A DNA stretch of 64,000 nucleotides from Candidatus Latescibacterota bacterium (GCA_965203355.1 OZ241889.1:3840001-3904000); one strand, 5' to 3'. Positions 4,249 through 53,860 are shown, numbered from the stretch's first letter. Made by a program: numbers and translations. Notes: generated by a model from the letters alone, not told the origin.

Positions 4249-4266
4249 ATGCAAAAGCCGTGCCAA
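4249..4266 (-). promoter_or_regulatory. sigma54 (-24/-12) promoter upstream of hsp20
   Basis: Minus strand TTGGCAC-GGCTT-TTGCAT matches the TGGCAC-N5-TTGC consensus; AT-rich tract upstream. Confidence 0.8.
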
Positions 4267-6295: not shown

Positions 6296-6296
6296 G

Positions 6297-7565: not shown

Positions 7566-7612
7566 GGGGCACCTCCACAGGTTGGTTTGTAGTAGGGACG
7601 ACCCTAGGCAAT

Positions 7613-9073: not shown

Positions 9074-9075
9074 TG

Positions 9076-10044: not shown

Positions 10045-10057
10045 GATTACTTTCCTT

Positions 10058-11041
10058 TCATTCCATTGGGTATTTTAGGCCGATCTGTGCGCGGATTTCG
10101 TCGAGTATCCGCATCAGCGCCACGGTTTCATCGAGCGGCATGACCGCGCTCTCGGTCCGCCCTTCGCCGAGGCAGCGGGCCACTTCTCGCGCTTCGTAGT
10201 TGTAGCCATTGCCCGCCAAAGGCAACTCAACGCGCTCTTCGCGGCCTCCAGCCTTGAGCGTGGCACTTTCGCCTTTCCACCACGACGGATCAATGACAAT
10301 CGTCCCCTCGCTGCCGACAATGTATGCTTCGCGGGCGATCGCAGCGCGGATGGCACAAGAAAGGTTGGCGATGGCACCGCCGCTGTAGCGGAGCACAATG
10401 CCGGTCTGCTCGTCAACGCCCGTTGCGCCGAGGTGGGCGGCGGCGGCAATCTGCGCGGGTTGTGCCCCGAGGACCATCGCGGCGAAGGAGACGACATAGA
10501 TGCCAATGTCGAGTAGGGCGCCGCCGCCCAAGGCGCGGTTAAAAAGCCGACCCGCGGGATTGACGCCCGCGCGGAAACCAAAGTCGGCGCTGACCATCAG
10601 CGGCACTCCTATGGCACCGGCGTCGAGCCACCGGCGCACTTGCCCCATAATGGGCAAGCAGCGAGTCCACATGGCCTCCATCAGAAAGACGCCCCGGGCG
10701 CGAGCGCAGGCGACGACCGCTTTGGCTTCGGCCGCATTGATGGTAAAGGGCTTCTCGCAGAGCACGGCTTTGCCGGCTTCAAGGCAGCGGATCGAATGAT
10801 CTTGGTGGAAGGGGTGAGGAGTGGCCACGTACACCGCGTCAATGTCGGGGTCGGTGCTGAGTGCTTCGTACGAGGCGTGGCGGTTGGGAGCCCCGTACTG
10901 GTCGCCAAAGGCGTCGGCGCGCTGCGGGTCGCGCGAGCCAACGGCGACCAACTCTCCCTCGGGAATGGCCTGGAGACCGACGGCGAATTTGTGGGCAATG
11001 CTGCCCGGGCCGAGGATGCCCCAGCGGATGGGTTGGGTCAT
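10058..11041 (-). CDS. Gfo/Idh/MocA family oxidoreductase
   Basis: WGILGPGSIA, VLCEKP, MEAMWTR, GGALLDIGIY. Confidence 0.92.
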   Translation of the reverse strand: MTQPIRWGILGPGSIAHKFAVGLQAIPEGELVAVGSRDPQRADAFGDQYGAPNRHASYEALSTDPDIDAVYVATPHPFHQDHSIRCLEAGKAVLCEKPFTINAAEAKAVVACARARGVFLMEAMWTRCLPIMGQVRRWLDAGAIGVPLMVSADFGFRAGVNPAGRLFNRALGGGALLDIGIYVVSFAAMVLGAQPAQIAAAAHLGATGVDEQTGIVLRYSGGAIANLSCAIRAAIAREAYIVGSEGTIVIDPSWWKGESATLKAGGREERVELPLAGNGYNYEAREVARCLGEGRTESAVMPLDETVALMRILDEIRAQIGLKYPME

Positions 11042-11294
11042 GGATGCTCCTAGCTTGGACTGATGTGAAAAATTGCGGGGGTTATAGTTTGGCCGTGTGC
11101 AGGAAAGGCGTCAAGGATGGGCGGTCCTCCAAAATCAGATCGGAATCGCCGCTAGCGAAATTGAGGAACTGGAACGAGAGAAGGCAACTGCCTGATGAGA
11201 CGAGAGGGCCGATTGGATTTCGTCCAAAATGGCCCTGCGCGACCGCGATCGTGTGAGGCTAATCTCGGTAGGGCCGCCGCCTCATGCTCGCAGG

Positions 11295-11927
11295 CTACCA
11301 GCCACATGCTTCGCGCAATGGACGCATGGCCTCTGCCGCACCCTTTAGATTAAAAGTAGCATCCACAGGACTCTTTCCCGTCGGTGTAATGCGCACGAAC
11401 AGCTTTTGGGACTCGGCTATCTTACGCTCCCAAAAGACGTTTCCCGGAGCAAAAATCGCCTCATCATCCGTGGACAGCCCCCAACGGTTCTTTTGTGCAG
11501 GTTGCTTATCAAAACGGGTCAAGACGGTGATATAGTCTTCAAACAATTCCAAAGACCAATCGTAATTAATGTAAACATTCGTTTCACCCTCCCTACAACG
11601 AACTATAAGCGTCGGGCGAGTTAGCCCTAGTAATCCCAAACCGCTTACATCAACCATATTCTCCGCCTCTAAGGCCATAAATACATTCCGCGAGTCGTCA
11701 ATTGGCGAGATTTCTTGATGTACTACCCACTGGCCTGTGCCTGAATCGGACAGTGTCGGCAGAGCTACACCTTCTGCGACTGCACGCGCCAACTCATCGT
11801 AACAGGCGAGGCGTTCGGCATCCTTATCCTTTGCCCGGCAGTGCGCCAGAACTTCTGGTATCGTGGCGGCTTCCACTGGGGCGAAAAGCAAACAACTCAT
11901 GCAAACGGCGGAGATTAATTGTTTCAT
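11295..11927 (-). CDS. Secreted protein resembling T6SS-associated TagO/VasI family
   Basis: Signal peptide, C...RLACYD, W...SPIDD, PTLIVRCREGET, TFNLKG...PLREACGW (recalled family pattern). Confidence 0.6.
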   Translation of the reverse strand: MKQLISAVCMSCLLFAPVEAATIPEVLAHCRAKDKDAERLACYDELARAVAEGVALPTLSDSGTGQWVVHQEISPIDDSRNVFMALEAENMVDVSGLGLLGLTRPTLIVRCREGETNVYINYDWSLELFEDYITVLTRFDKQPAQKNRWGLSTDDEAIFAPGNVFWERKIAESQKLFVRITPTGKSPVDATFNLKGAAEAMRPLREACGW

Positions 11928-43485: not shown

Positions 43486-44711
43486 CCGCTTCCTTTGACA
43501 TTGCCAAGGTTCGCCGCGACTTCCCGGTCCTCGGCGAGAAAATCCGCGGCAAGGACCTCGTCTATTTCGACAACGGCGCGACCACCCAAAAGCCGCTGAC
43601 GGTCCTCTACGCACTCCAACGCTACTACGCCCGCGAAAACGCCAACATCCATCGCGGCGTCCACTTCCTCAGCCAGCAAGCGACCTTTGCCTACGAGCGC
43701 GGCCGCGGCCGCGTCGGCCAGTTTATCAACGCCCGCGAGAGCAGCGAGATCGTCTTTGTGCGCGGCACCACCGAGGCCCTCAATCTCGTCGCCCACAGCT
43801 ACGGCCGACCGCAGCTAGGCCCGGACGACGAGATCATCGTCTCCCAGCTAGAGCACCACTCCAACATCGTGCCGTGGCAAATGCTGTGCGCGGAAAAGGG
43901 CGCACACCTGCGGGTCGTGCCCATTAGCGATGCGGGTGAGTTCCTCTTCGACGAATACGAAAAGCTACTGTCCGAGCGCACCCGCATCGTCGCCATCGCC
44001 CACGCTTCCAACGCCCTCGGCACCATTCTGCCGGTAAAGGAAATCGCGGCCGCAGCCCATCGGCACGGCGCAGTCGTCGTGGTCGATGGGGCGCAAGGAG
44101 TGCCCCACCTGCCAGTCGATGTGCAAGACCTCGACTGCGACTTCTACGCCTTTTCCGCGCACAAGCTCTTCGGCCCCACCGGCATCGGCGTACTCTACGG
44201 CAAGCAGGCCCTGTTACGCGCCATGCCGCCCTACGAAGGCGGCGGCTCCATGATCGAAAAGGTGAGCTTTGCCGGCACCACGTATGCTCCCCCGCCGACG
44301 CGCTTTGAGGCCGGCACACCGCACATCGCTGGCGTCGTTGGCTTGGAGACCGCCATTGATTACGTCAACGCCGTGGGCCGCGAGCAGATCGCCGCGTACG
44401 AAGCCGACTTGCTCGCGTATGCAGACGCCGCTCTCGCCGCCATCCCGGGGCTGCGCCTGATTGGCACGGCCCGCGAGCGAGTGGCCGTGATCTCCTTCAC
44501 CCTCAGCGACATCCACCCACACGACATCGGCACCATCCTCGACGCCGAGGGCATTGCCGTGCGCGCCGGCCACCACTGCGCCCAGCCGACCATGCAGTTT
44601 TACCAAGTGCCCGCTACGGTGCGCGCCTCGTTGGCTTTTTACAACACGTACGCGGAAATTGACGCCTTGGTCGCGGCGTTGCACAAGGTCAAGAAGGTGT
44701 TTGATGAATAA
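43482..44711 (+). CDS. sufS: Cysteine desulfurase SufS
   Basis: DNGATTQKP, EHHSN, SAHK, RAGHHCAQP. Confidence 0.96.
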   Translation: MTASFDIAKVRRDFPVLGEKIRGKDLVYFDNGATTQKPLTVLYALQRYYARENANIHRGVHFLSQQATFAYERGRGRVGQFINARESSEIVFVRGTTEALNLVAHSYGRPQLGPDDEIIVSQLEHHSNIVPWQMLCAEKGAHLRVVPISDAGEFLFDEYEKLLSERTRIVAIAHASNALGTILPVKEIAAAAHRHGAVVVVDGAQGVPHLPVDVQDLDCDFYAFSAHKLFGPTGIGVLYGKQALLRAMPPYEGGGSMIEKVSFAGTTYAPPPTRFEAGTPHIAGVVGLETAIDYVNAVGREQIAAYEADLLAYADAALAAIPGLRLIGTARERVAVISFTLSDIHPHDIGTILDAEGIAVRAGHHCAQPTMQFYQVPATVRASLAFYNTYAEIDALVAALHKVKKVFDE

Positions 44712-44732
44712 AAAGAATGAGGCATTTCAACC

Positions 44733-45185
44733 ATGACTGAGCTTCGCGAACTGTACCAGCAGGTCATCCTCGATCACAACAAAAATCCGCGCAACTTTGG
44801 CAAGCTGCCCGCGGCCAATCGCATGCAGGAGGGCTACAATCCCCTGTGCGGCGATCACCTGCACATCTATCTCCACGTGGCCGACGAGCGGATTGACGAC
44901 ATTCGCTTTGACGGGTCGGGTTGCGCCATTTCCAAAGCCTCGGCTTCCCTGATGACCACCGCCCTCAAGGGCAAGCGTCCCGACGAGGCGGTTGCCCTGT
45001 TTGAGCAGTTCCACCAGATGGTGACCGCCCAGCCGGATGCGCCCGTCGATCACCAAGCCTTGGGCAAGATGGCCGTCTTCGCTGGGGTGCGCGAGTTTCC
45101 CATGCGCGTCAAGTGCGCGACCTTGGCTTGGCACGCCGCCAAAGCGGCCCTAGCACAAGACCCGTCGCCCGCATCCACCGAATAG
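44733..45185 (+). CDS. sufU: SufU/NifU-family scaffold
   Basis: NPLCGD, GCAISKASAS, RVKCATLAW. Confidence 0.93.
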   Translation: MTELRELYQQVILDHNKNPRNFGKLPAANRMQEGYNPLCGDHLHIYLHVADERIDDIRFDGSGCAISKASASLMTTALKGKRPDEAVALFEQFHQMVTAQPDAPVDHQALGKMAVFAGVREFPMRVKCATLAWHAAKAALAQDPSPASTE

Positions 45186-45200
45186 CAAAGGAACCTTCCC

Positions 45201-45539
45201 ATGGAACTGTTGCACGAAAAAACCTTTCCTTCCGGCTCGACCGAGGCCCAAGTGGTGGCCGTGCTCAAGACCTGTTACGACCCTGAGATTCCGGTCGATA
45301 TTTTTGCCCTCGGCCTGATCTACGACATTGAGGTCAGCGACGCGCAGGATGTCCACGTGACCATGACCTTGACCTCGCCCGCCTGTCCGGTGGCCGGTAC
45401 GCTGCCGCCGGAAATCGAGCACAAGATCAAGGCCCATGTCCCGGGCATCGCCACGGCCCGGGTCGAGGTGGTGTGGGATCCGCCGTGGACGATCGACATG
45501 ATGACCGAAGGTGCCAAACTCGAACTAGGCATGATGTAA
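45201..45539 (+). CDS. sufT: DUF59/SufT-like Fe-S assembly protein
   Basis: YDPEIPVDI, MTLTSPACP, VWDPPW. Confidence 0.85.
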   Translation: MELLHEKTFPSGSTEAQVVAVLKTCYDPEIPVDIFALGLIYDIEVSDAQDVHVTMTLTSPACPVAGTLPPEIEHKIKAHVPGIATARVEVVWDPPWTIDMMTEGAKLELGMM

Positions 45540-45540
45540 C

Positions 45541-46011
45541 ATGAAACTCAGCTCAAGCGAAGAATACGGCTTGCGCTGCCTCTTGCAACTGGCTCGCCAA
45601 ACCCCGGGCAGCCTGACCATTCCGGAGATCAGCCAAGCCGAGGGGATCACCCATCACAACGTCGCCAAGCTCTTGCGCATTCTCCGGCAGGGCGGCTTTG
45701 TGGCCAGTGCCCGCGGCCAGCAAGGCGGCTACGCCCTCGCCAAGCCCCCGGACCAAATCGCCGTGGCCGACGCGGTCGCCGCGTTGGGCGGTCGCCTCTT
45801 CGACGCCGGTTTCTGCGATCACTTCGCCGGCAGCGCGGATTGCTGCACACACTCGCTGACGGCGTGTTCGGTGCGTGCGCTGTGGGAGCAAGTCCAGCAG
45901 GCCGTCGATCGCATTTTATCGCGCACCACCCTCGCCGACCTGCTCGAACAGGGCTACGCCCTCGCCGACGAAGAGGCGTTGCTCGATATATCGGAGAGTA
46001 CGCTGCGATGA
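45541..46011 (+). CDS. Rrf2-family transcriptional regulator (Cys-containing)
   Basis: EEYGLRCL, RGQQGGYAL, C..C..C ligand region. Confidence 0.92.
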   Translation: MKLSSSEEYGLRCLLQLARQTPGSLTIPEISQAEGITHHNVAKLLRILRQGGFVASARGQQGGYALAKPPDQIAVADAVAALGGRLFDAGFCDHFAGSADCCTHSLTACSVRALWEQVQQAVDRILSRTTLADLLEQGYALADEEALLDISESTLR

Positions 46012-47513
46012 AAAAGGTCTTGCTGTGCTGGATCGGTGGAAAAGATTTGGATGCCTCACAAGGAAAAGATGTTGGCGAGGGTCCTATTGCACAGGCCGTA
46101 GAAAAACGCGGGTTTGACGAAGTATTTTTGATTTCAGACTACTCGCCCGACCGTGTAACTGCGTATGTCGAATGGGCTAAGAAAAGGAGCTCGACGCCGT
46201 ACCAACTACGCAGGGTGAAACTTTCAAGCCCGACTCACTTTGGCGAAATCTATGAGGCCGCGAGGGATGTGTGCAAAAAGGCTTTGGGCGACCAACCTGA
46301 TCAAGTCAAATTGACTTTTCACCTTAGTCCTGGTACGCCGGCGATGGCGGCGGTGTGGATCCTCCTAACGAAAATGGGCTTTCCCGCTAAATTAATCGAA
46401 TCTTCAAGAGAGCACGGCGTTCAAACGACGTCTGTTCCCTTTGAGATTCAGGCAAAATATCTGTCCGATCTACTGGCCAAACCCGACGCACAACTCCGCT
46501 CGGCCAGCGCAGGAAAACCCGCAGAAACGGCAGCTTTTGGCGACATAATCTACCGCAGTCAGAAGATGGCGGATTTGGTCGAAAAAGCGAAGCGAGTCGC
46601 AGTGCGGAACGTTCCCGTTTTGCTCGAAGGCGAGTCCGGCACTGGGAAGGAACTTTTTGCCCGCGCCATCCACAAACATAGCCTAAGAAAGGATAAGCCA
46701 TTTATCGCGGTGAATTGCGGTGCAATACCGCGCGATCTGGTGGAAGCCGAACTGTTTGGACACAAAAAAGGCGCGTTTACCGACGCACATGCTGAGCGTA
46801 AAGGTCATTTTGAACAGGCCAATGGCGGTACGCTCTTTTTGGATGAAATCGGCGAGTTACCCAAAAATATGCAGGTGAAATTGTTGCGCGTCCTCCAAGA
46901 AGGCGAGTTCCTCCCCCTCGGTGCATCCACACCCACCAAAGTAGATGTACGCATTGTGGCGGCGACAAATCGGAATCTCGTTGAAGAAGTACGCGAAGGA
47001 CGATTTCGAGAGGACTTGTTTTATCGGATTGTAGTGGCTTACCTCAAACTGCCGCCTTTGCGGGGCCGCGAGGGCGATTTGGGCATGCTGATCCGCCATT
47101 TTATTGATAAAATCAATCAGGAATACGAAAAGGAATACGAAGGACAGCCCGGTTACAAACGTAAAGAAATTTCCCCTAACGGAAAAAATGTTCTCATAAA
47201 CCATTCTTGGCCGGGCAATATACGCGAGTTGGAAAACACCCTGAACCGCGCCATGCTGGCCGACAGCAAAATTCTCGACGAACAAGATATTGAAGATGCA
47301 CTCTTACGCATCGACCATAAGGGCGGCAAAGATATACTGAATCGCCAGTTAGGTGGGGATTTTAACCTAAAGAAACTCATTAGCGAGGTCGCAAGGCACT
47401 ATCTTAAGCGAGCCGACAAAGAATCTCAAAACAACAGAACAGAAGCCGCAAGACTGTTAGGACTTCCCTCTCGTCAGACGTTTGACAACTGGAAGGAGAA
47501 GCACCAAGCATAG
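46008..47513 (+). CDS. sigma54-dependent activator: N-terminal CARF/RtcR-like domain + AAA+ + HTH
   Basis: Start ATG overlaps Rrf2 stop; FHLSPGTPAM CARF-like motif; GESGTGKE, GAFTDA, FLDEIGE, WPGNIREL, C-terminal AARLLG HTH. Confidence 0.85.
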   Translation: MKKVLLCWIGGKDLDASQGKDVGEGPIAQAVEKRGFDEVFLISDYSPDRVTAYVEWAKKRSSTPYQLRRVKLSSPTHFGEIYEAARDVCKKALGDQPDQVKLTFHLSPGTPAMAAVWILLTKMGFPAKLIESSREHGVQTTSVPFEIQAKYLSDLLAKPDAQLRSASAGKPAETAAFGDIIYRSQKMADLVEKAKRVAVRNVPVLLEGESGTGKELFARAIHKHSLRKDKPFIAVNCGAIPRDLVEAELFGHKKGAFTDAHAERKGHFEQANGGTLFLDEIGELPKNMQVKLLRVLQEGEFLPLGASTPTKVDVRIVAATNRNLVEEVREGRFREDLFYRIVVAYLKLPPLRGREGDLGMLIRHFIDKINQEYEKEYEGQPGYKRKEISPNGKNVLINHSWPGNIRELENTLNRAMLADSKILDEQDIEDALLRIDHKGGKDILNRQLGGDFNLKKLISEVARHYLKRADKESQNNRTEAARLLGLPSRQTFDNWKEKHQA

Positions 47514-47527
47514 ACATTTGGCAAAGC

Positions 47528-47543
47528 TGGCACGGAATTTGCT
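47528..47543 (+). promoter_or_regulatory. sigma54 (-24/-12) promoter
   Basis: TGGCAC-GGAAT-TTGCT, 15 bp after the activator stop codon. Confidence 0.85.
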
Positions 47544-47611
47544 TCTCTTCTATCAAGGATATGAAGCGAGGCTCAAATCACCCACCACCCGAAAGAGAAA
47601 GGAGAAATCTA

Positions 47612-47698
47612 ATGCAAAATGTGCTGCCAGCCATACTAGTTTCATTGGCTATATATGCCGGTCAACGCATCATTGATAAGATCGTTGATGGGCTTTAG
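47612..47698 (+). CDS. 28-aa hydrophobic/amphipathic peptide MQNVLPAILVSLAIYAGQRIIDKIVDGL
   Basis: AAAGGAG RBS 7 nt upstream; frame conserved in the duplicate copy. Confidence 0.7.
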   Translation: MQNVLPAILVSLAIYAGQRIIDKIVDGL

Positions 47699-47778
47699 CA
47701 CGTAGCTCAACAGCTCGCTGGGCAGCGTCAATTCGTTGCCCAATCACCCATCACCCCAAAGAGAAAGGAGGTAATCTA

Positions 47779-47856
47779 ATGTTGCCAGCGATATTAATTC
47801 CACTGGCTATATATGCCGGTCAATGCATCATTGATAAGATCATTGATGAGCTTTAG
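47779..47856 (+). CDS. 25-aa paralogous peptide MLPAILIPLAIYAGQCIIDKIIDEL
   Basis: AAAGGAGGT RBS; same stop position as the first copy. Confidence 0.7.
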   Translation: MLPAILIPLAIYAGQCIIDKIIDEL

Positions 47857-47870
47857 CATATAGCCAATAT

Positions 47871-47904
47871 CTCGCTGGGCAGCGTCAACTCGTTGCCCAG
47901 CGAG
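47871..47904 (+). terminator. RNA hairpin after peptide 2 (truncated copy at 47714-47742)
   Basis: CTCGCTGGGCAGCG-TCAACT-CGTTGCCCAGCGAG, one G-U pair, no U-tail. Confidence 0.6.
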
Positions 47905-47940
47905 AGTGCCTTCGTCTAAACCAAACAGAAAGGACTGATT

Positions 47941-48099
47941 ATGGCGCGAAGAACACGCGACGACGCACGGATAAGAACAGTCGAGAAAAAGCTGGGAATC
48001 GGGAACAGCCTCACGAATCCCAACGGACGCAATGCCCGTTCCGATAAAAAACTGGGGAATCTCCGTAAGAGTTGGGAAAAGTCTGGTAAGAAGAAATGA
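47941..48099 (+). CDS. 52-aa basic protein MARRTRDDARIRTVEKKLGIGNSLTNPNGRNARSDKKLGNLRKSWEKSGKKK
   Basis: AGAAAGGA RBS; internal repeat (RDDARIRTVEK / RSDKKLGNLRK; KKLG twice). Confidence 0.7.
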   Translation: MARRTRDDARIRTVEKKLGIGNSLTNPNGRNARSDKKLGNLRKSWEKSGKKK

Positions 48100-48135
48100 A
48101 GTGTCGCAAAATCTATAATGAAAGGAGGTGATTCT

Positions 48136-48219
48136 ATGATAATATGGCAACCGACAGGCCCTTATATCGCTCTTGCCATCTTAAAATCATTATACAAATG
48201 GCTGGCGAAGCGGCGATAG
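48136..48219 (+). CDS. 27-aa Ldr/Fst-like membrane peptide MIIWQPTGPYIALAILKSLYKWLAKRR
   Basis: AAAGGAGGTGA RBS; W..P-hydrophobic helix-W-basic tail. Confidence 0.65.
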   Translation: MIIWQPTGPYIALAILKSLYKWLAKRR

Positions 48220-48229
48220 CAGTTTGTGA

Positions 48230-48271
48230 TTCTATCAGGGGGTGGAGATTTACCTTCGTCTCCTGATAGAA
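48230..48271 (+). terminator. Hairpin closing the peptide cassette
   Basis: TTCTATCAGGGGGTGGAG-ATTTAC-CTTCGTCTCCTGATAGAA: 18-bp stem once G-U pairs are allowed, followed by ATTTCTT. Confidence 0.7.
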
Positions 48272-48276
48272 ATTTC

Positions 48277-48305
48277 TTGACATGTCTTCTTGACACACGT
48301 AGGTT
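48277..48305 (+). promoter_or_regulatory. Possible sigma70 promoter for ATPase operon
   Basis: TTGACA-17 bp-TAGGTT; direct repeat TCTTGACA at 48275 and 48288. Confidence 0.45.
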
Positions 48306-48339
48306 TTCAACGTTCTTCCACTTAACTCGTGAGAAAATC

Positions 48340-49935
48340 ATGGCTATTAAATCTATAACCATAGAAAATTTCAAGGGCATCGGTGACGCCGTGACCATTC
48401 CGATTCGCCCGATCACTTTGCTGTTTGGTAAAAACAGCTCGGGTAAGTCAACAGTGTTGCAGGCCCTGTTATACATGTCACACGTAATAAAATACGAGGA
48501 TCCAGATCCATATAGTACAGATATAGATCGAGGTTATATTGATCTAGGTGGTTTTTATTCTTTAGTACATCGTCATGAATTGGATCGGAATATTCGCATC
48601 CGTATTGAATTCGGCGGTCAAGACCTTGAAAGATTTTATGAAGCTGAAGGTCCTTTTTTAAAGGGGTTACGAGACCCTATCCGTCGTGACTTGTACGGAT
48701 ATCTAAAATCCGTGTGGATAGAAGTTGTAACAGGTTGGAATGCTGAAAAAGATTATACCGAGGTGCTGTCGCTCAGCTTGGGCTTGAATGGAATAGAGTG
48801 GTATTGTAAAACAAATAAAAGACCGGAGATATTTCCTTCTATAAATACAATTGGATCGAATCGCACACAATGGGTTAGTAACCACGGTAGATACGACGGT
48901 ACCAATTATTATAATATTGAGCACCCCATCATTATCGATAATGTAGACAATAAAATGAAGCAAAACATTTTATTAGCACTCACCACTAGGAAGCTAGCCA
49001 AAGATCTTGATCCTCTGTTAGCATCTATACGTCACTCGTATTATAGTATCAGAGATAAGCTGATAAAAATTGGAGTAAGCGTATCGACCAGTATAAGATA
49101 TTTGGGACCAATCCGAAAATTACCCCCTCGCAACTTTGCCCCACAAAAGACACCTAATGAATCAAAATGGGCAACAGGACTAGAGGCATGGAACATACTT
49201 GGTAGAGAAAGAAAATCTCTGATGATCGAAAGTATAAACTACTATATGAAAGATATTTTGAAGCTCGGTTACACTATTAAAAGAAAAGAATACATCTTGC
49301 TGGATATAGATAGCAAGATCATGAAAAACATGGAAGAATCTGACAGCATTAACCGATTAAAAGAGTTACCTCGCCAAGTTAGACTGAAGCTCCACAGCGA
49401 AAAGAATGACGTTGATTTAGATCCCTTAGATGTCGGTTTGGGAATTTCCCAAGTTATTCCCGTTTTGGTGGGAATTAAAAATTTTGCTACGAAGAATATT
49501 TTTGCTGTCGAAAATCCAGAGATTCATCTTCACCCTGCCGCCCAAGTCGCTCTAGGCGACGTGTTTATTGATAGCAAAAATCCAAACAATACTTTACTCA
49601 TTGAGACGCATTCTGAACATCTGTTGTTGAGATTACTTCGACGTGTGCGCGAGACCAATGTTCGTATCTCAGAAAAGTATGATAAGCTGGTAAGGGAAAG
49701 GCGACAAAATTCAATAAATCCTATAGATGAAGATGAGATGCTAGAGCTGGATATTCGTTCTAGGGAATCTGAGCATCCATATCACCACTTAGAGCCAGAC
49801 GATTTATCAATAGTCTATGTCATGCCAACATCAGAGGAAGTCAAGTTAACTCTATTTACTGTAACAGGTGACGGCGACTTCGAAGAACTTTGGCCAGAAG
49901 GCTTTTTTGAAGAACGTATGGAGGAGCTTTTCTAA
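48340..49935 (+). CDS. ABC-type ATPase (AAA_15/AAA_21-like) with DUF3696-like C-terminus
   Basis: IENFKG, GKNSSGKST, GLGISQVIP, VENPEIHLHP, IETHSEH, WPEGFFEER; AT-rich. Confidence 0.85.
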   Translation: MAIKSITIENFKGIGDAVTIPIRPITLLFGKNSSGKSTVLQALLYMSHVIKYEDPDPYSTDIDRGYIDLGGFYSLVHRHELDRNIRIRIEFGGQDLERFYEAEGPFLKGLRDPIRRDLYGYLKSVWIEVVTGWNAEKDYTEVLSLSLGLNGIEWYCKTNKRPEIFPSINTIGSNRTQWVSNHGRYDGTNYYNIEHPIIIDNVDNKMKQNILLALTTRKLAKDLDPLLASIRHSYYSIRDKLIKIGVSVSTSIRYLGPIRKLPPRNFAPQKTPNESKWATGLEAWNILGRERKSLMIESINYYMKDILKLGYTIKRKEYILLDIDSKIMKNMEESDSINRLKELPRQVRLKLHSEKNDVDLDPLDVGLGISQVIPVLVGIKNFATKNIFAVENPEIHLHPAAQVALGDVFIDSKNPNNTLLIETHSEHLLLRLLRRVRETNVRISEKYDKLVRERRQNSINPIDEDEMLELDIRSRESEHPYHHLEPDDLSIVYVMPTSEEVKLTLFTVTGDGDFEELWPEGFFEERMEELF

Positions 49936-49937
49936 CA

Positions 49938-50945
49938 ATGATCTATGAATATGCACTGGATCCCGAACTTGTTGTAACATGGAGTTCTGAAGATTGTGAC
50001 TACTTCATCGACAAGTTTGGCTTTGATAGGGATGGCAACGCAACAGGTCGCATAATATCTAAATATCCATATCCTAATAATAACCGCGACATAAGTTGGG
50101 ATAATATAGTTAGCAAAACGCTCAAAAGAACTTGTCGTACTAGTAAAGAAAAAAAAATCATAGACGTGTTATTGGAAGAAATAAAAAAGGAAAAAAGGAG
50201 TATCACTCGTTCTATTACATCTAGGGATTGGGATCCGAATAAATCATGGCTTGAAAACGCCGAGGCTGAGCAGGAAGCAAATATTAACCGTCCTTTTCGT
50301 GCGATTCTTGCCCGTGAAAACCCAAGAAAAAAAGACTACGTGATTACTAATACAAGGCCTGCGTCCCTCAAAGATCAATCGCCTTGTCTTTGGCGTGTAT
50401 CGAGAGGAATAACCATAGCTCGAAGCACAAAGGTAATGGCAGAGTGCTTTGGTCCAATACTGAGATGTGCAACTTTAATCCTTTTTATAGATCCAAATTT
50501 CGATCCAAAAAAGTCTAAATGGAGAAAACCGTTGAGAAAATTCCTAGAAATTATTTATGATTCAAAGCATCGTGGTGTCATAGTTCAATACCTTACCTCT
50601 AAGAAAATATTTAGTAGCCAAAATGTATGTCAATGTGAATGGAATCTTTTTTGCAAAAAATGCAAATCCCTCAAGGAATACGTTGGCTCTGGATGTGATC
50701 TAATCGTCTGCTGTCTTAACAAAAGAAATAGTGATCAAGAACTCCATGACCGATTTATCCTTACTAACATTGGTGGGGTAACGATAACTTACGGTTTAGA
50801 TATTGGTAGAGGTAAGAATAACATCCATCTTATGGACAGAGAATCCTACAATACTCATTTTAAGCTGTATCGTACACATGTTGAGAAGGAATTTGAGTGT
50901 AAAAAGTGGATGGACGACTCGCGACACTCGAAATCGACATCCTAA
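49938..50945 (+). CDS. Hypothetical protein with C-terminal PLD-like (HDR) domain
   Basis: Starts 2 nt after ATPase stop; LFIDPNF and LHDRFILTNIGGV...GLD motifs. Confidence 0.6.
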   Translation: MIYEYALDPELVVTWSSEDCDYFIDKFGFDRDGNATGRIISKYPYPNNNRDISWDNIVSKTLKRTCRTSKEKKIIDVLLEEIKKEKRSITRSITSRDWDPNKSWLENAEAEQEANINRPFRAILARENPRKKDYVITNTRPASLKDQSPCLWRVSRGITIARSTKVMAECFGPILRCATLILFIDPNFDPKKSKWRKPLRKFLEIIYDSKHRGVIVQYLTSKKIFSSQNVCQCEWNLFCKKCKSLKEYVGSGCDLIVCCLNKRNSDQELHDRFILTNIGGVTITYGLDIGRGKNNIHLMDRESYNTHFKLYRTHVEKEFECKKWMDDSRHSKSTS

Positions 50946-51439
50946 TTCCGGGGCGCGGCGAGGTCCCTTTCAGCGATCTCCACACTAGCCCCAACCCCGA
51001 TAGCCGCGGATCGCTCCTTCGCCCTTGCCTGCTGCCCTTTTTCAGTGTATTTATAATCCACTTTTGTATTCGTCTTGGCTGAGCAAAAACAAACCCAACT
51101 CATGGCTGAACATTACTATCGATCACTAGCAAAAAATCGCGCTGGGAGGTTTTGATGGGCACTTGGGCACGAGCATGGACACCAACTTTGACCGAGCGAG
51201 AAACCGTGCTTTTCGTTTTGAATGAGGACGAGCTAAATGCACGCTCGCCAGAGCACCGTTGATTTTTCAACGAAGTGTATCATCCGCAATTTGACAGAGA
51301 TCGCTGGAAAAGCACCTAACCCAGCATTTGCATTGGACAACATGGCCAATTTGGCGCGAGTTAATGAACCGATGAAATACAACGCGCATTTTGGGGGCCA
51401 AAAAATGGGTCGTAGAGCATTCACAAAGGCTGAATAGCA

Positions 51440-52435
51440 ATGGGAGATTCAGGTAGTACAGTGGCAGTGACCGGTGCTGCGGGCTTTCTCGGCAGCCACA
51501 TATGCCGCGCCTTGTTGCACGGCGGATATGCGGTGCGCGCTGTCGCGCACGAGGGCAGCAATCGCAAACTTCCCGCGGACCTGAGCGATCAGGTCGAATG
51601 GCGACTGGCCGATGTCCGCAATCCCGAGTCGTTAAACCAAGCATTCCAACACGCCCACGCCATCGTTCACAGTGCTGAAATTGCGACAGTTGACGCCGAT
51701 CCCAAAGGGTTGGCAGATGCAATCAACTTGACGGGTACTCGCAACGTGATTCAAGCATGTATTAGCACCGGCGTCCACCGACTGATACACATCAGTTCCA
51801 TACACGCATTCAGCCCGCTACGCGGAACGATTCTGAGTGTCAGTTCAAAACTGGGCCAAGACTCCAAGATCCCCTACACGGCCACCAAAGCCGAAGCGCA
51901 CGTAAGCGTACTCGATGCGGCGAGAAGCGGTTGGCTCAATGCATCTATCGTCTGTCCGGCAAACCTCATAGGTCCCGGCGACAGCGAGCCGACCCGCGCC
52001 GGTCGCATCCTGCTGGCCATAGCGCACAAGCGACTCCCGTGGCTCATCAACGGAGGGGGCTGGTGGAGCGACGTGCGAGATGTGGCAAATGCCATCGCCC
52101 ATGCGGTGGGAGCCAACGAATACGGGGGCGAGGTTCACTTTACGGCCGGGCGATACGCAAAAATCCGCGGACTAGCGCACCTGTGTTCTCAGGTTTTGGG
52201 ACATAGCGTGATGCGCCCGGTCATACCCTACTTTCTAGCGCGGACAGGTTTGCCCTTGATCAAGCGGAACCCACCGTTTTTTTACTCCCGCCATTCACTC
52301 AAACTCCTGCGCGACAGCCCGCTATCCGTTGATGAATCCTCGGCGCGGAATCAACTCGGATACGAACCGCGGCCCCTTAACGAATCGGTCCGCGACGCCC
52401 TCGATTGGTTCGCCGCGCAGGGAACGCGCTTGTAA
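51440..52435 (+). CDS. NAD-dependent epimerase/dehydratase (extended SDR, dihydroflavonol reductase-like)
   Basis: VTGAAGFLG, HISS, YTATK, DVRDVA. Confidence 0.88.
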   Translation: MGDSGSTVAVTGAAGFLGSHICRALLHGGYAVRAVAHEGSNRKLPADLSDQVEWRLADVRNPESLNQAFQHAHAIVHSAEIATVDADPKGLADAINLTGTRNVIQACISTGVHRLIHISSIHAFSPLRGTILSVSSKLGQDSKIPYTATKAEAHVSVLDAARSGWLNASIVCPANLIGPGDSEPTRAGRILLAIAHKRLPWLINGGGWWSDVRDVANAIAHAVGANEYGGEVHFTAGRYAKIRGLAHLCSQVLGHSVMRPVIPYFLARTGLPLIKRNPPFFYSRHSLKLLRDSPLSVDESSARNQLGYEPRPLNESVRDALDWFAAQGTRL

Positions 52436-52447
52436 CCGGGCAGGTTT

Positions 52448-53860
52448 TCACCCCGGCAGCGGATCTTCGCCCGCGTATGGCTGGTCGCCCACTTTTTCCT
52501 GTAGGCGGCGCAATTCCCCGCGCAACTGGCGCACCACTCCGGCATAGGCCGGGTCGCGGTACACATTGACCAGTTCGCACGGATCTTTTTCCAAATCGAA
52601 CAACTCCCATTCCGGCTCTTTGGGATCATTTAGGGCACCGGGCTGGCCCAAGGCATCGGCATAGTAGTAGATGAGCTTGTAACGCAAGGTGCGGACTCCG
52701 TAGTGCGCGTACACGTGGTGGTGCGCCAAGTGCATCCAGTAGCGATAGTACATCACCGTCTGCCAGTCGTCCGGGGTCCGGCCCGCTAGCACCGGGCGCA
52801 TGGAGCGGCCTTGGAACGAATCGGGTATGGCGACGCCGGCGTAGTCGAGGAAGGTGGGCGCAAAGTCCACGTTGAGGATCATGTCGGCGCTGACGCTGCC
52901 GGCGGCAATGGCGCGGGGATAGCGGATGAGGAAGGGCATGCGCAGCGATTCCTCGTACATGAAGCGCTTGTCGTACCAGCCGTGATCGCCGAGGAAAAAG
53001 CCCTGATCCGAAGTATAGACGACGATGGTGTCGTCGGCTATGCCCTCGGCGTCGAGATAATCGAGTACGCGGCCCACGTTGTCATCGACTGCGGCGACGC
53101 AGCGCAGATAGTCTTTTATATAGCACTGGTACTTCCACTTTTTCTCCTCTTCCGGGGACAGTCCTGTGGGTACGGGCCGCTTGAGATCGGTGGCGTTGAG
53201 GTCGCGATCAACGCGCATTTTGGCCGCTCCGGCGGCCGCCGCTCGATTCTGATAGTCGTCGGCAAAAGTCGCTGGCTCGGGCAGGTCTTCGCCTTCGTAA
53301 AGATGAGCGTGTTTTTCGTCCGGCTCCCACGGGCGATGCGGGGCCTTGTGGTGGTACATCAGGCAAAAGGGCCGCTCCTTGTCGCGTGCCCTAAGCCAGT
53401 CGAGCGACAAGTCGGTGATAATGTCGGTAGTATAGCCCTCGTATTGGACCTTGTCGCCGTTGCACACCATCTCCGGGTCGAAGTACGGGCCTTGTCCCTG
53501 GAGGATGTTGTAGTAGTCAAAGCCGGTGGGCCAGTGGGCCGGCCCCTCGCCTAGGTGCCATTTGCCGACGATCGCGGTCTGATAACCAACGCCCTGCAAG
53601 AGCTTGGCGAAGTTGAGCTGGCGGTTGTCGTGGCGCGAGTCCAAAGTGGTCATGCCGTTGACGTGATTGTACGTGCCGGTGAGGATGGTGGCGCGGGAGG
53701 GGCCGCAAATCGAATTGGTGCAAAAGCAGTTGTCAAAGCGCATGCCACCTTGGGCAATGCGATCGAGGTTGGGCGTGGTGTTGATGCGGCTGCCGTAGCA
53801 ACTCATGGCGTGGGCCGCGTGATCGTCAGTCATAATGAAGAGAATATTGGGACGAGACAT
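52448..53860 (-). CDS. Sulfatase (Cys-type)
   Basis: PNILFIMTDDH, CGPSRA, GKWHL, SDQGFFLGDHG; AGGAG RBS. Confidence 0.92.
   Translation of the reverse strand: MSRPNILFIMTDDHAAHAMSCYGSRINTTPNLDRIAQGGMRFDNCFCTNSICGPSRATILTGTYNHVNGMTTLDSRHDNRQLNFAKLLQGVGYQTAIVGKWHLGEGPAHWPTGFDYYNILQGQGPYFDPEMVCNGDKVQYEGYTTDIITDLSLDWLRARDKERPFCLMYHHKAPHRPWEPDEKHAHLYEGEDLPEPATFADDYQNRAAAAGAAKMRVDRDLNATDLKRPVPTGLSPEEEKKWKYQCYIKDYLRCVAAVDDNVGRVLDYLDAEGIADDTIVVYTSDQGFFLGDHGWYDKRFMYEESLRMPFLIRYPRAIAAGSVSADMILNVDFAPTFLDYAGVAIPDSFQGRSMRPVLAGRTPDDWQTVMYYRYWMHLAHHHVYAHYGVRTLRYKLIYYYADALGQPGALNDPKEPEWELFDLEKDPCELVNVYRDPAYAGVVRQLRGELRRLQEKVGDQPYAGEDPLPG

What the first reader, a model, noticed from the sequence alone, without database searches (positions are those of the whole stretch)
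46008..50945. Candidate new defence/stress system: CARF-sigma54 activator -> sigma54 promoter -> micro-peptide cassette -> ATPase + PLD-like protein
Seen: an AT-richer island contains a sigma54 activator whose N-terminal domain carries an RtcR/CARF-like HLSPGTP motif. A consensus -24/-12 promoter lies 15 bp after its stop. Four tiny ORFs follow, each with a strong SD, then a closing hairpin and a coupled ABC-ATPase/HDR-protein pair. Established: CARF domains bind nucleotide-type ligands (RtcR responds to RNA ends with 2',3'-cyclic phosphate), RtcR-like regulators occur near defence genes, and sigma54 promoters stay silent until activated. Inference: a damage or phage-derived signal switches on membrane-active peptides (dormancy or abortive infection), possibly linked to the ATPase-nuclease pair. 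rtcA/rtcB are absent here, so the output differs from the canonical Rtc system.
Basis: partly seen in the sequence, partly recalled or inferred. Interest (0 to 1): 0.9.

Follow-up and report, generated by a model that had tools for sequence, protein, structure and literature searches.

The report
Sensor-controlled phage-defence locus with micro-genes
A nucleotide-sensing switch protein sits directly in front of its own special promoter, four tiny genes and a two-gene ATPase/nuclease module of a kind used against viruses; the parts are each of known types, but this compact combination is new and easy to test.

Summary
The low-GC island (46008-50945) encodes a full-length RtcR-like CARF-AAA+-HTH sigma54 activator. 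An exact -24/-12 element lies 15 nt after its stop. Four SD-preceded micro-ORFs under purifying selection follow, then an 18-bp hairpin and a coupled ATPase/partner pair.

This activator family, unlinked to rtcBA and heading defence genes, was described in silico in 2014 and 2024.

The pair is not an unknown system. The ATPase is NsnB-type (Menshen / PDC-M55 / HEC-03 class). The partner has a MIT_C/PB-PLD1-type PLD fold with the published D...HDR signature of one NsnC effector class. The Menshen sensor NsnA (DUF262) is absent.

Across 33 homologous loci the promoter follows the activator in 26. All 20 loci with the ATPase downstream have it. Peptides precede the first ATPase in only 13 of those 20, so the conserved cargo is the ATPase/PLD pair.

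Most likely mechanism: a ligand bound by CARF turns on the sigma54 promoter. This gives a burst of micro-proteins and, by read-through, more of the ATPase-nuclease module.

No expression or phenotype data exist. Verdict: new variant of a known kind, moderate interest.

The parts
46008..47513 (+). RtcR-like CARF-AAA+-HTH sigma54 enhancer-binding protein, 501 aa. CARF is roughly residues 1-145 (nt 46008-46442). The sigma54-interaction AAA+ domain is residues 180-345. It carries GAFTDA, a variant of the GAFTGA loop (that motif name is recalled, not from a call). The ATG overlaps the stop of the upstream Rrf2 gene (ATGA).
   Evidence: PADLOC RtcR_PspF2--CARF_AAA_HTH, E 3.6e-195, residues 2-500 on profile positions 1-479 of 481. 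Pfam Sigma54_activat E 1.9e-72 and AAA_lid_14 E 1.4e-16. AF2 model of residues 1-175 has pLDDT 75.9. Its top Foldseek PDB hits are CARF proteins: Csm6 6tug, Can2 8bao, SSO1393 3qyf, ring nuclease 7pq2, Cad1, Card1 and VC1899.
47528..47542 (+). sigma54-type -24/-12 promoter, TGGCAC-N5-TTGC, 15 nt after the activator stop
   Evidence: Exact match. An equivalent element follows the activator in 26 of 33 homologous loci, 3 of 3 plasmid homologues and 7 of 8 metagenome loci examined. rpoN is present in 5 of 5 related genomes.
47612..47698 (+). pepA, a 28-aa micro-ORF with a hydrophobic N-terminal half and an acidic amphipathic tail; paralogue of pepB
   Evidence: SD AAGGAG lies upstream. The family occurs in 7 loci (WIN twice, L001, L005, L011, L055, L056, L073), pN/pS 0.35. 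GRAVY is 0.97. No Pfam match.
47779..47856 (+). pepB, a 25-aa micro-ORF, second copy of the pepA type; followed by an 11-bp-stem hairpin at 47871-47904
   Evidence: GRAVY 1.35. The same peptide-plus-hairpin unit is seen in L001, L005, L011, L056 and L073.
47941..48099 (+). p52, a 52-aa strongly basic protein (net charge +12) with no family
   Evidence: It is 79-94% identical in 8 of the 10 closest loci, against 72-76% for the activator. pN/pS is 0.18. Only 17 homologous clusters exist, all 56-90% identical. No Pfam, PADLOC or NCBIfam match. The Atlas gives only unnamed clusters.
48136..48219 (+). pepD, a 27-aa hydrophobic micro-ORF with a basic C-terminal tail; a divergent member of the most widespread peptide type of these loci
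   Evidence: SD AGGAGG lies upstream. A pepD-type ORF stands directly before the hairpin in 13 of the 20 ATPase-bearing loci and in front of later cassettes in L049, L050 and L051. pN/pS is 0.48.
48230..48271 (+). Conserved GC-rich hairpin closing the peptide leader; terminator-like
   Evidence: 18 pairs followed by ATTTCTT. Folding energy is -24.2 kcal/mol. All 15 peptide-associated copies fold at -20.6 to -30.2, whereas all 7 peptide-less equivalents fold at only -6.9 to -13.3. In an 18-sequence alignment, 9 consensus pairs are predicted and 4 show a compensatory change.
48277..48305 (+). sigma70-like promoter candidate: TTGACA (48277-48282), 17 nt, TAGGTT (48300-48305)
   Evidence: CTTGAC is invariant in 17 of 18 aligned copies just after the hairpin. 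An xAxxxT hexamer 16-18 nt downstream was read by eye. It was not called by the consensus scan. Inference only.
48340..49935 (+). NsnB-type ABC ATPase (AAA_15/AAA_21), 531 aa
   Evidence: Pfam AAA_15 E 1.1e-27 and AAA_21 E 1.1e-20. PADLOC NsnB E 2.8e-44 (residues 3-528 on profile positions 2-337 of 345), PDC-M55A E 2.4e-42, HEC-03B E 4.4e-32 and AriA E 6.3e-31. The sequence shows Walker B FAVEN (an EN dyad) and VGLGISQ (GxG), as published for NsnB. 33 of the first 45 residues are invariant in 20 paralogues and orthologues.
49938..50945 (+). NsnC-like effector, 335 aa: an N-terminal alpha/beta domain plus a C-terminal MIT_C/PB-PLD1-type PLD fold with D185 (FIDP) and H270-D-R272
   Evidence: Invariant D185, H270 and R272 in 32 sequences. 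AF2 pLDDT 80.5 and pTM 0.82. Foldseek PDB gives 23 hits at E<=1e-3, nearly all PLD superfamily, including SauUSI, TrmBL2 and PLDs. Pfam MIT_C is hit by 2 of 32 family members. An Atlas look-alike cluster carries MIT_C in 17% of members. The family has 3352 representative clusters at E<=1e-3; the only name given by any source is 'hypothetical protein'.

Best explanation
The island is a transcriptionally licensed conflict (anti-phage) locus built from known part types in a new arrangement.

Parts:
- The activator is a CARF-sensor sigma54 enhancer-binding protein of the RtcR-like 'RtcR_PspF2' family.
- Its conserved point of action is the -24/-12 promoter that abuts its own stop codon.
- The conserved cargo is a translationally coupled NsnB-type ABC ATPase and an NsnC-type effector with a MIT_C/PB-PLD1 PLD domain (D...HDR). 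This is a Menshen-like module without the DUF262 sensor NsnA.
- In this lineage the leader also holds four translated micro-ORFs, closed by a strong hairpin and a sigma70-like -35 box.

Proposed mechanism:
1. The pair is made at a basal level from the sigma70-like promoter.
2. An infection- or RNA-damage-derived ligand binds the CARF domain. By analogy with RtcR this would be an RNA end with a 2',3'-cyclic phosphate or a related nucleotide.
3. The activator then remodels sigma54 holoenzyme.
4. The promoter fires, giving a burst of the micro-proteins and, by read-through of the hairpin, more ATPase-nuclease.
5. The ATPase gates the PLD effector, which cuts nucleic acid and stops phage growth.

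Shown here: domain identities, folds, motif and gene order, and their conservation.

Inferred: the ligand, activation, read-through, the roles of the peptides, and defence itself.
For: Regulator:
- Full-length profile match and CARF fold.
- rpoN is present in 5 of 5 related genomes.
- Exactly one full-length copy per related genome.

Link from regulator to cargo:
- The promoter follows the activator in 26 of 33 loci, including all 20 that carry the ATPase downstream.
- The same layout holds with other cargo. Type I R-M follows in L059, L062 and L065, and a fused methylase/specificity/AAA protein (N6_Mtase + Methylase_S + AAA) in L063. Plasmid homologues carry VWA-PP2C-kinase or type I R-M.
- It also holds in 7 of 8 metagenome loci examined.

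Cargo identity:
- NsnB profile and the EN/GxG motifs.
- PLD fold and D...HDR, matching the published PB-PLD1 description.
- A partner-family hit lies in the same locus in 71 of 80 metagenome loci, and in the rows listed it starts at or just after the ATPase stop.
- The related two-gene HEC-03 needs both genes for defence.

Defence-like evolution: the flanking SufT and Rrf2 are 90-96% identical between relatives, against 72-76% for the activator, 40-46% for the ATPase and 22-35% for the partner. Relatives carry tandem arrays of 2-3 divergent cassettes.

Leader: the strong hairpin co-occurs with the peptides (15 of 15). It is decayed where the promoter abuts the ATPase leader directly (7 of 7).
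Against: - There is no expression, ligand or phenotype evidence of any kind, and no RNA run was listed.
- The window hairpin scores as a terminator. The sigma54 transcript may therefore end before the ATPase, leaving the pair on its own promoter.
- GC differs between the leader (0.44-0.47) and the pair (0.37-0.41). That is compatible with separate acquisition.
- The Lys of the canonical PLD HxK motif is replaced by Arg, so catalysis is unproven. TrmBL2, a non-catalytic PLD-like fold, is among the top hits.
- Pfam DUF3696, the NsnB tail, was not detected. PADLOC has no match for the partner.
- 7 of 33 activator homologues have no promoter next to them. Of the 6 with a full-length activator, the two sampled (L060, L064) have metabolic neighbours; the seventh, L054, has a shortened activator.
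- In the metagenome relatives only 9 of 52 loci with enough upstream sequence hold a CARF activator.
Confidence: 0.55

Rival explanations
1. Two independent neighbours. The sigma54 promoter drives only the micro-ORF leader, which ends at the hairpin. The ATPase/PLD pair is a separate module transcribed constitutively from the TTGACA promoter and merely parked next door in a defence island.
For: The hairpin scores as a terminator and is strong wherever peptides are present (15 of 15). CTTGAC after it is invariant in 17 of 18 copies. There is a GC step between the leader and the pair. In metagenomes the pair mostly lives without a CARF activator, behind hsdS in 22 of 57 loci.
Against: In 7 of 20 loci the promoter is followed by no peptide, only by a decayed hairpin and the ATPase leader. 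All 20 loci with the pair keep the promoter. In relatives, later cassettes have acquired their own copies of the sigma54 promoter (L047-L051).
Confidence: 0.2
2. The micro-ORFs are regulatory leader peptides, not effectors. Their translation sets whether the downstream hairpin forms. A ribosome at the stop codon would lie 10-20 nt before the stem. Translation stress would thus be coupled to read-through into the ATPase/PLD genes.
For: The pepD-type ORF always stands directly before the hairpin. The stop-to-stem distance is about 10-22 nt in the printed loci. Hairpin strength tracks the presence of the peptide. Translation and RNA-damage sensing fits the RtcR theme (abstracts of PMC7790460 and PMC10159003 in the listing).
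Against: The peptide sequences are under amino-acid-level constraint, with pN/pS of 0.18-0.48 and conserved motifs such as D-N-W-P-S-K/R-R. That is more than a pure leader needs. p52 is better conserved than the activator. No alternative anti-terminator pairing was found, although none was searched for systematically.
Confidence: 0.15
3. This is a non-defence stress regulon. The CARF activator responds to endogenous RNA or redox damage, being co-transcribed with the suf/Rrf2 operon. The small membrane proteins and ATPase would serve envelope or nucleic-acid housekeeping, as in Psp or Rtc.
For: The activator ATG overlaps the Rrf2 stop at the end of the suf operon. The locus sits at this place in 8 close relatives. 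RtcR itself controls repair rather than defence (abstracts in the listing).
Against: Divergence is extreme against near-identical flanks. Relatives show tandem polymorphic cassettes and IS elements. Homologous activators carry R-M cargo. The ATPase matches only defence-type profiles. rtcB was not found in 5 of 5 related genomes.
Confidence: 0.1

Closest known systems
RtcR-like CARF-AAA+-HTH sigma54 activators not linked to rtcBA (Makarova et al. 2014, PMC4012209; 'RtcR_PspF2' model in PADLOC; RtcR homologues heading CoCoNuT/R-M superoperons, Bell et al. 2024, PMC11090510)
   Same: The domain architecture is the same, the profile match is full length and the fold is CARF. The gene is co-directional with defence-type cargo. 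Homologues in the same phylum and on plasmids head type I R-M.
   Different: The cargo here is an NsnB/NsnC-like pair with no R-M or CoCoNuT. The passages I read do not mention a -24/-12 element abutting the activator's stop codon, or a micro-ORF leader. The papers' supplements and Makarova et al. 2020 could not be seen.
E. coli/Salmonella RtcR-rtcBA RNA-repair system
   Same: A CARF-sensor bEBP plus a sigma54 promoter. The NCBIfam RtcR model aligns over residues 58-491.
   Different: The score of 353 bits is below the 650-bit equivalog cut-off. The Pfam RtcR domain match is only E 0.0013, below the gathering score. rtcB is not in the window and was not found in 5 of 5 related genomes. The target genes are co-directional and downstream. 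That rtcR is divergent from rtcBA is recalled, not from a call.
Menshen (NsnABC) anti-phage system, in particular NsnC with the PB-PLD1 effector (PMC12065111)
   Same: An AAA_15 ABC ATPase with an EN Walker B and a GxG signature. The partner has an N-terminal alpha/beta domain and a PLD domain with an acidic residue after beta2 and HDR before beta5. The pair is tightly coupled and highly polymorphic.
   Different: There is no NsnA/DUF262 gene at the locus. None was found within 90 kb on the same contig in the four related genomes whose locus lies on a chromosome-sized contig, and none on the locus contig in the fifth. Only 1 of 57 upstream neighbours in metagenome relatives is DUF262. Pfam DUF3696 was not detected. 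No PADLOC NsnC model matches.
Two-gene ABC-ATPase + effector candidates embedded in DNA-modification systems (HEC-03, validated; PDC-M55, untested; Payne et al. preprint 10.1101/2024.01.29.577857)
   Same: The ATPase matches PDC-M55A (E 2.4e-42) and HEC-03B (E 4.4e-32). Metagenome relatives of the pair sit directly after hsdS in 22 of 57 cases, which is the 'embedded' context.
   Different: The partner here is PLD-type, not the VapC-like PIN protein described for HEC-03. In the window the pair is not embedded in any R-M system; it stands directly behind a CARF activator.
Small hydrophobic toxins of type I toxin-antitoxin systems and phage-shock small membrane proteins
   Same: The peptides are 25-28 aa with one hydrophobic stretch and a charged tail. 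They would be inducible from a tightly silent promoter.
   Different: No antisense RNA partner was looked for or seen. The hydrophobic stretches are only 16-18 residues and contain Pro/Gly/Gln, plus a conserved Asp in relatives. There is no sequence similarity to any Pfam family. Toxicity is untested.

Membership tests
RtcR-like CARF sigma54 activators (RtcR_PspF2) | N-terminal CARF (Rossmann-like) sensor domain | tested here: met
   PADLOC CARF-family profiles: RtcR_PspF2 E 3.6e-195, CARF4 E 1.1e-11, Csx1/Csm6 E 4.3e-07 over residues 1-134. The AF2 model has top PDB fold hits among Csm6, Can2, ring nuclease, Cad1, Card1 and VC1899, with TM-scores (normalised to the query) up to 0.65.
RtcR-like CARF sigma54 activators (RtcR_PspF2) | Central sigma54-interaction AAA+ domain | tested here: met
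   Pfam Sigma54_activat E 1.9e-72 over residues 180-345. PDB sequence hits include NtrC1, ZraR, FleQ and PspF. GAFTDA is in the sequence.
RtcR-like CARF sigma54 activators (RtcR_PspF2) | C-terminal HTH DNA-binding domain | tested here: inconclusive
   Pfam HTH_28 E 0.0038 and HTH_8 E 0.011, both below their cut-offs. The PADLOC profile does align to position 479 of 481.
RtcR-like CARF sigma54 activators (RtcR_PspF2) | A sigma54 promoter and an rpoN gene to act on | tested here: met
   Promoter at 47528-47542, conserved in 26 of 33 loci. rpoN is present in 5 of 5 related genomes. The window's own genome is not held.
RtcR proper (RNA-repair regulator) | Controls an adjacent rtcBA operon; reaches the equivalog score | tested here: not met
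   NCBIfam RNA_repair_RtcR scores 353 bits against a cut-off of 650. There is no rtcA or rtcB in the island. RtcB Pfam was found in 0 of 5 related genomes.
Menshen (NsnABC) | NsnB: AAA_15 ABC ATPase with EN Walker B and GxG signature | tested here: met
   PADLOC NsnB E 2.8e-44 and Pfam AAA_15 E 1.1e-27. FAVEN and VGLGISQ are in the sequence. The features are those listed in PMC12065111.
Menshen (NsnABC) | NsnB C-terminal DUF3696 tail | tested here: inconclusive
   Pfam DUF3696 is not among hits at E<=0.1. The NsnB profile alignment does reach residue 528 of 531.
Menshen (NsnABC) | NsnC: C-terminal effector, here the PB-PLD1 class (acidic residue after beta2, HDR before beta5) | tested here: met
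   D185 follows strand 180-184 and H270-D-R272 precedes strand 273-276 in the model. Both are invariant in 32 sequences. PLD fold hits. MIT_C is hit in 2 of 32 members.
Menshen (NsnABC) | NsnC: N-terminal inactive PIN-like domain that binds NsnB | tested here: inconclusive
   Residues 1-140 are modelled as an alpha/beta domain, but the fold search aligned only the PLD half. The complex prediction gave no verdict.
Menshen (NsnABC) | NsnA: ParB-like DUF262 sensor encoded with NsnB and NsnC | tested here: not met
   No DUF262 gene lies in the island. In the related genomes the nearest DUF262 hit on the locus contig is more than 90 kb away, and G005's locus contig has none. None is among the extra ORFs of related loci. 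1 of 57 upstream neighbours in metagenome relatives is DUF262.
PLD-superfamily nucleases | PLD fold | tested here: met
   23 Foldseek hits at E<=1e-3, nearly all PLD superfamily.
PLD-superfamily nucleases | Canonical HxK(x)4D catalytic motif | tested here: not met
   The motif is H-D/N-R-x4-N/D, with Arg invariant in place of Lys. This is the MIT_C/PB-PLD1 variant described in PMC12065111.
Type I toxin-like small membrane peptides | Short single-pass hydrophobic peptide that is toxic on expression, with an antisense RNA antitoxin | not testable with these tools
   Only hydropathy is available. There is no family match and no Rfam match in 44000-53000. Toxicity and antisense RNA were not tested.

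The most novel reading that the evidence does not exclude
In this lineage a CARF-sigma54 activator has taken the place of the DNA-sensing NsnA subunit of Menshen-type systems, so sensing is moved to the level of transcription. A nucleotide or RNA-end alarm signal licenses, in cis, one to three polymorphic ATPase/PLD cassettes. Several of these have copied the activator-proximal promoter module for themselves. The same signal co-induces dedicated micro-proteins that are effectors in their own right, acting by membrane depolarisation or ribosome/RNA binding. The result would be a two-tier response from one 5-kb locus. The micro-proteins would then be a new class of sigma54-licensed abortive-infection effectors.
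Probability: 0.2. Interest if true: 0.75.

Novelty: new variant of a known kind. Interest (0 to 1): 0.5.

Why it matters
CARF-domain sigma54 activators in front of defence genes have been predicted since 2014. In the papers my searches reached, I found no experimental test of one outside the rtc operon.

This locus is a minimal case in about 5 kb: one activator, one promoter abutting its stop codon, and one small cargo. It could show directly three things:
- what ligand such a CARF domain senses;
- whether defence genes are kept transcriptionally silent until infection;
- what the co-induced micro-proteins do.

It also shows that the NsnB/NsnC(PLD) pair works in contexts without NsnA, either behind a CARF activator or embedded after hsdS. 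That bears on how Menshen-type systems sense infection.

The tandem, promoter-carrying polymorphic cassettes in relatives suggest a way to widen specificity under one sensor.

Tried and rejected
- Rfam scan of 44000-53000 at E<=1: no RNA family.
- Pfam on the five small peptides at E<=10: nothing.
- Atlas on p52: only unnamed clusters.
- PDB sequence search with the activator: only the AAA+ part matched, with no CARF chain by sequence.
- Complex prediction with ATPase (A4) plus partner (A1): no verdict, score 0.00 in both runs, controls not run. This is neither for nor against binding.
- The look-up of sequencing runs for RNA: no RNA holder listed. There were 5 holders from 2 studies, and one guessed RNA run holding next to none of the words.
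- PexR (PMC12754779) was checked as a possible match for the activator and rejected, because its sensor is GAF.
- Search for an enhancer (UAS): I aligned 260 nt upstream of 14 promoters. The secondary promoters share a roughly 250-nt module that looks like a decayed copy of the activator's 3' end, with repeated AAATTTAC words. No clear inverted repeat could be assigned.
- sigma70 promoter after the hairpin: the consensus scan did not call it. It rests on the conserved TTGACA and my reading of the -10 positions.
- Viral contigs: only 10 distant relatives of the ATPase, 22-52% identical by best aligned segment. Not followed up.
- No whole genome is held for the window.
- Makarova et al. 2020 (NAR 48:8828) is not held. 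Paper supplements are closed. Neighbourhood tables there, and in PMC4012209, PMC11090510 and PMC12065111, may already list this arrangement.
- The string 'RtcR_PspF' is found in 0 papers.
- The Menshen paper's main text has no 'RtcR', and 'CARF' appears only in its reference list.

Full report
**1. What is there**

The stretch 46008-50945 is a low-GC island. GC is about 0.62 in the flanks, 0.47-0.53 over the activator and leader, and 0.37-0.41 over the last two genes. It lies directly after a suf operon; SufT and an Rrf2 regulator are upstream.

On the + strand it holds, in order:
- a 501-aa activator (46008-47513) whose ATG overlaps the Rrf2 stop;
- an exact TGGCAC-N5-TTGC at 47528-47542;
- four micro-ORFs behind strong Shine-Dalgarno sequences: pepA 47612-47698, pepB 47779-47856, p52 47941-48099 and pepD 48136-48219;
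- an 18-pair hairpin (48230-48271), followed by TTGACA (48277-48282);
- a 531-aa ATPase (48340-49935);
- two bases later, a 335-aa protein (49938-50945).

No Rfam family matches the region.

**2. The activator**

It matches the PADLOC model RtcR_PspF2--CARF_AAA_HTH end to end (E 3.6e-195). It also hits other CARF models through its first 134 residues: CARF4 at 1.1e-11 and Csx1/Csm6 at 4.3e-07. Pfam gives the sigma54-interaction domain at 1.9e-72, but the RtcR domain only weakly (0.0013, below threshold). The NCBIfam RtcR equivalog scores 353 bits against a cut-off of 650.

I modelled residues 1-175 from a 34-sequence alignment (pLDDT 75.9). The top PDB fold matches are CARF proteins: Csm6, Can2, SSO1393, a ring nuclease, Cad1, Card1 and VC1899.

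The protein is not RtcR proper. No rtc genes are in the island, and RtcB was found in 0 of 5 related genomes. rpoN is in 5 of 5. The window's own genome is not held.

**3. Is the promoter meaningful?**

By itself it is not. The window has 2 exact copies and 6 at up to one mismatch, against 5.9 expected. The test is conservation.

I collected 32 homologous loci from one phylum. Searching 167 genomes with the CARF domain gave a hit in 32. Activator identity to the window falls into three tiers:
- tier 1, about 72-76%;
- tier 2, about 64-67%;
- tier 3, about 53-60%.

Counting the window, a TGG[CT]AC-N5-N[TG]GC element follows the activator in 26 of 33 loci, mostly within 80 nt of its end. The 7 without are one locus with a shortened activator and six tier-3 loci. 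The two of those six that I sampled (L060, L064) have metabolic genes downstream.

Other contexts give the same picture:
- Three proteobacterial plasmid homologues (38-45% identical in CARF) have the element between -18 and +5 of the stop.
- Seven of eight metagenome loci examined have it between -28 and +30.

The promoter abutting the activator's stop codon is thus a family-wide feature.

**4. What is the conserved cargo?**

In tier 3 and on plasmids the cargo is mostly type I restriction-modification, or a VWA-PP2C-kinase set. That is what Makarova et al. (2014) reported for RtcR-like proteins not linked to rtc (PMC4012209, passages read). It also fits the 'superoperons' headed by RtcR homologues in Bell et al. 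2024 (PMC11090510, passages read).

In tiers 1 and 2, all 20 loci that extend far enough carry the ATPase downstream, and all 20 have the promoter. A partner-family ORF follows at least one ATPase copy in 18 of those 20: L002's contig ends inside the ATPase, and in L047 only a 173-aa ORF of no family follows the first copy.

The peptides are less constant:
- A pepD-type ORF precedes the first ATPase in 13 of 20 loci.
- In the other seven (L044-L049, L051) the promoter is followed only by a weak hairpin and the ATPase leader.
- Among the eleven tier-1 loci (window included), pepA/B occur in 6 and p52 in 9. Both also occur in the metagenome locus L073.

The conserved output is therefore the ATPase pair, and the micro-ORF cassette is a lineage-specific addition.

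**5. The ATPase/partner pair**

The ATPase is an AAA_15/AAA_21 ABC ATPase. Its best defence-profile matches are NsnB (2.8e-44, near full length), PDC-M55A, HEC-03B and AriA. It shows the EN Walker B and GxG signature that the Menshen study lists for NsnB (sequence; PMC12065111, passages read).

The partner has no Pfam, PADLOC or NCBIfam family at threshold. It belongs to a very large unnamed family: 3352 representative clusters at E<=1e-3 and 1377 at <=1e-30. Of the 21 cluster members listed, none carries any name other than 'hypothetical protein'.

A 32-sequence alignment has invariant D185, H270 and R272. The model (pLDDT 80.5, pTM 0.82) places D185 just after a strand and H270-D-R272 just before another.

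Three further results point to a PLD-type domain:
- Foldseek finds 23 PDB hits at E<=1e-3, nearly all PLD superfamily: SauUSI, TrmBL2 and bacterial and human PLDs.
- Two of the 32 family members hit Pfam MIT_C.
- An Atlas look-alike cluster carries MIT_C in 17% of its members.

This is the 'PB-PLD1' effector class of NsnC described in the Menshen paper, with an acidic residue after beta2, HDR before beta5, and similarity to MIT_C.

**6. Not canonical Menshen**

NsnA (DUF262) is missing:
- None is in the island.
- None is among the extra ORFs of related loci, which are transposases and housekeeping genes.
- In five related genomes the nearest DUF262 hit on the locus contig is more than 90 kb away, and G005's locus contig has none.

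A metagenome scan with the ATPase alignment returned 80 loci. A partner-family hit lies in 71 of the 80, and in the rows listed it starts at or just after the ATPase stop. Of 57 upstream neighbour ORFs, 22 are HsdS and only 1 is DUF262.

This clade of the pair is thus mostly 'embedded' in type I R-M operons. That is the context from which PADLOC's PDC candidates were drawn, and in which the related HEC-03 was shown to need both genes for defence (preprint 10.1101/2024.01.29.577857, passages read).

A CARF activator is present in 9 of the 52 loci with more than 1.5 kb upstream. It is directly adjacent in five of these, and about 5-6 kb upstream in four. In those four the ORF directly before the ATPase was among the 57 scanned; only L075's was reported individually, and it is HsdS.

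**7. Signs of conflict-type evolution**

Between the window and its closest relatives, identities differ sharply by gene:

| Gene | Identity to window |
|---|---|
| SufT, Rrf2 (flanks) | 90-96% |
| Activator | 72-76% |
| ATPase | 40-46% |
| Partner | 22-35% |

Other signs:
- Tier-2 loci carry two or three divergent ATPase copies in tandem, most followed by a partner, and IS elements lie between cassettes in L047, L049 and L050.
- The first 45 residues of the ATPase are nearly invariant (33 of 45 positions in 20 sequences), while the whole proteins are 43-56% identical in the alignment.
- Later cassettes in L047-L051 have their own copy of the sigma54 promoter. It sits in a module that looks like a decayed copy of the activator's 3' end.

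**8. The micro-ORFs and the hairpin**

Frames and lengths are conserved. Summed pairwise pN/pS is 0.18 (p52), 0.35 (pepA/B) and 0.48 (pepD core).

- pepA and pepB are hydrophobic (GRAVY 0.97 and 1.35) with an acidic tail.
- pepD has a hydrophobic stretch and a basic tail.
- p52 is very basic, with net charge +12. It has only 17 homologous clusters, all close.

The hairpin after the pepD-type ORF is strong wherever a peptide is present: -20.6 to -30.2 kcal/mol in 15 of 15 copies. It is weak where the promoter directly precedes the ATPase leader: -6.9 to -13.3 in 7 of 7. Eighteen aligned copies keep 9 pairs, 4 of them with a compensatory change. The window's copy is flagged terminator-like.

Directly after the hairpin, CTTGAC is invariant in 17 of 18 copies. 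In the loci I read, an xAxxxT hexamer lies 16-18 nt further on. I read this as a sigma70-type promoter, although the consensus scan did not call it.

**9. Mechanism proposed**

- Shown: the parts, their folds, order and conservation.
- Inferred: basal sigma70 transcription of the pair. A CARF-bound signal switches on the sigma54 promoter. By analogy with RtcR the signal may be RNA ends with 2',3'-cyclic phosphate (abstracts of PMC7790460 and PMC10159003, listing). The promoter gives micro-proteins and, through partial read-through, more ATPase-nuclease. The ATPase gates the PLD effector, as proposed for NsnB/NsnC, Septu and PARIS.
- Rivals: the pair is transcriptionally independent (0.2), the peptides are leader or attenuator peptides (0.15), or this is a non-defence stress regulon (0.1).
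- No expression data could be had. The complex prediction gave no verdict.

**10. Novelty and score**

The activator family and its link with defence genes, the NsnB/NsnC(PLD) pair, and the embedding of such pairs are all in print.

Three things I did not find in the texts my searches reached:
- this pair directly under a CARF-sigma54 activator without NsnA or R-M;
- the promoter-at-the-stop-codon layout as a family trait;
- the translated micro-ORF leader.

Supplements and Makarova et al. 2020 were not visible.

I rate it a new variant of a known kind, interest 0.5. It is not a new class, but it is a compact and directly testable case of a long-predicted, untested mode of defence regulation.

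Noticed in passing
window 46008-46011: The activator's ATG overlaps the stop of the upstream Rrf2 (IscR-like) gene (ATGA), at the end of a suf Fe-S assembly operon. In the window the activator is therefore probably co-transcribed with suf. In relative L001 a gap of about 450 nt separates the two genes.
   Followed up: partly
L044-L052 (e.g. L044 4757-11687; L045 oriented 4748-11718): Relatives carry two or three tandem, strongly divergent ATPase copies behind one activator, most followed by a partner. Each has the same conserved leader, ending in a short hairpin and a T-run just before the start codon. The first 45 ATPase residues are almost invariant.
   Followed up: partly
L048 7390-7770; L050 oriented 4506-4870; L051 7810-8130; L011 7600-7915: Secondary sigma54 promoters in front of later cassettes sit in a shared non-coding module of about 250 nt. 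It looks like a decayed copy of the activator's 3' end and contains repeated AAATTTAC words. These words are possible enhancer or IHF sites.
   Followed up: partly
L051 8205-8552: A 115-aa ORF with a weak GIY-YIG match (E 1.8e-4) lies between a secondary sigma54 promoter and the peptide-hairpin unit of the second cassette.
   Followed up: no
L011 6001-7523; L057 3001-4496; L054 3001-4308: The activator is broken or shortened in 3 of 32 homologous loci (frameshift, split, truncation). The cargo remains in L011 and L057.
   Followed up: no
L063 oriented 4580-5563: The first cargo protein behind the promoter of a tier-3 activator is 327 aa with no Pfam family. It begins with a hydrophobic segment resembling the N-terminus of pepA/B (MLPAFIVPAI... 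versus MLPAILIPLA...). This may be chance, or a hint at the origin of the peptides.
   Followed up: no
window 4251-4265 (- strand): This is the only other exact TGGCAC-N5-TTGC in the 64-kb window. Its context was not examined.
   Followed up: no
L002 7880-7978; L003 7893-7982: Two close relatives lack pepA/B and p52. Instead they carry a different 29-32-aa ORF (MSK...LAAELAVAILNVLLGRSK...) behind a strong SD, between the hairpin and the ATPase. The leader is evidently a site of micro-ORF turnover.
   Followed up: no
L047 oriented 9140-9560: In front of a later cassette, the place of the pepD-type ORF is taken by an unrelated 41-aa Gly/Ala-rich hydrophobic ORF. It is again followed by the strong hairpin and TTGACA.
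   Followed up: no
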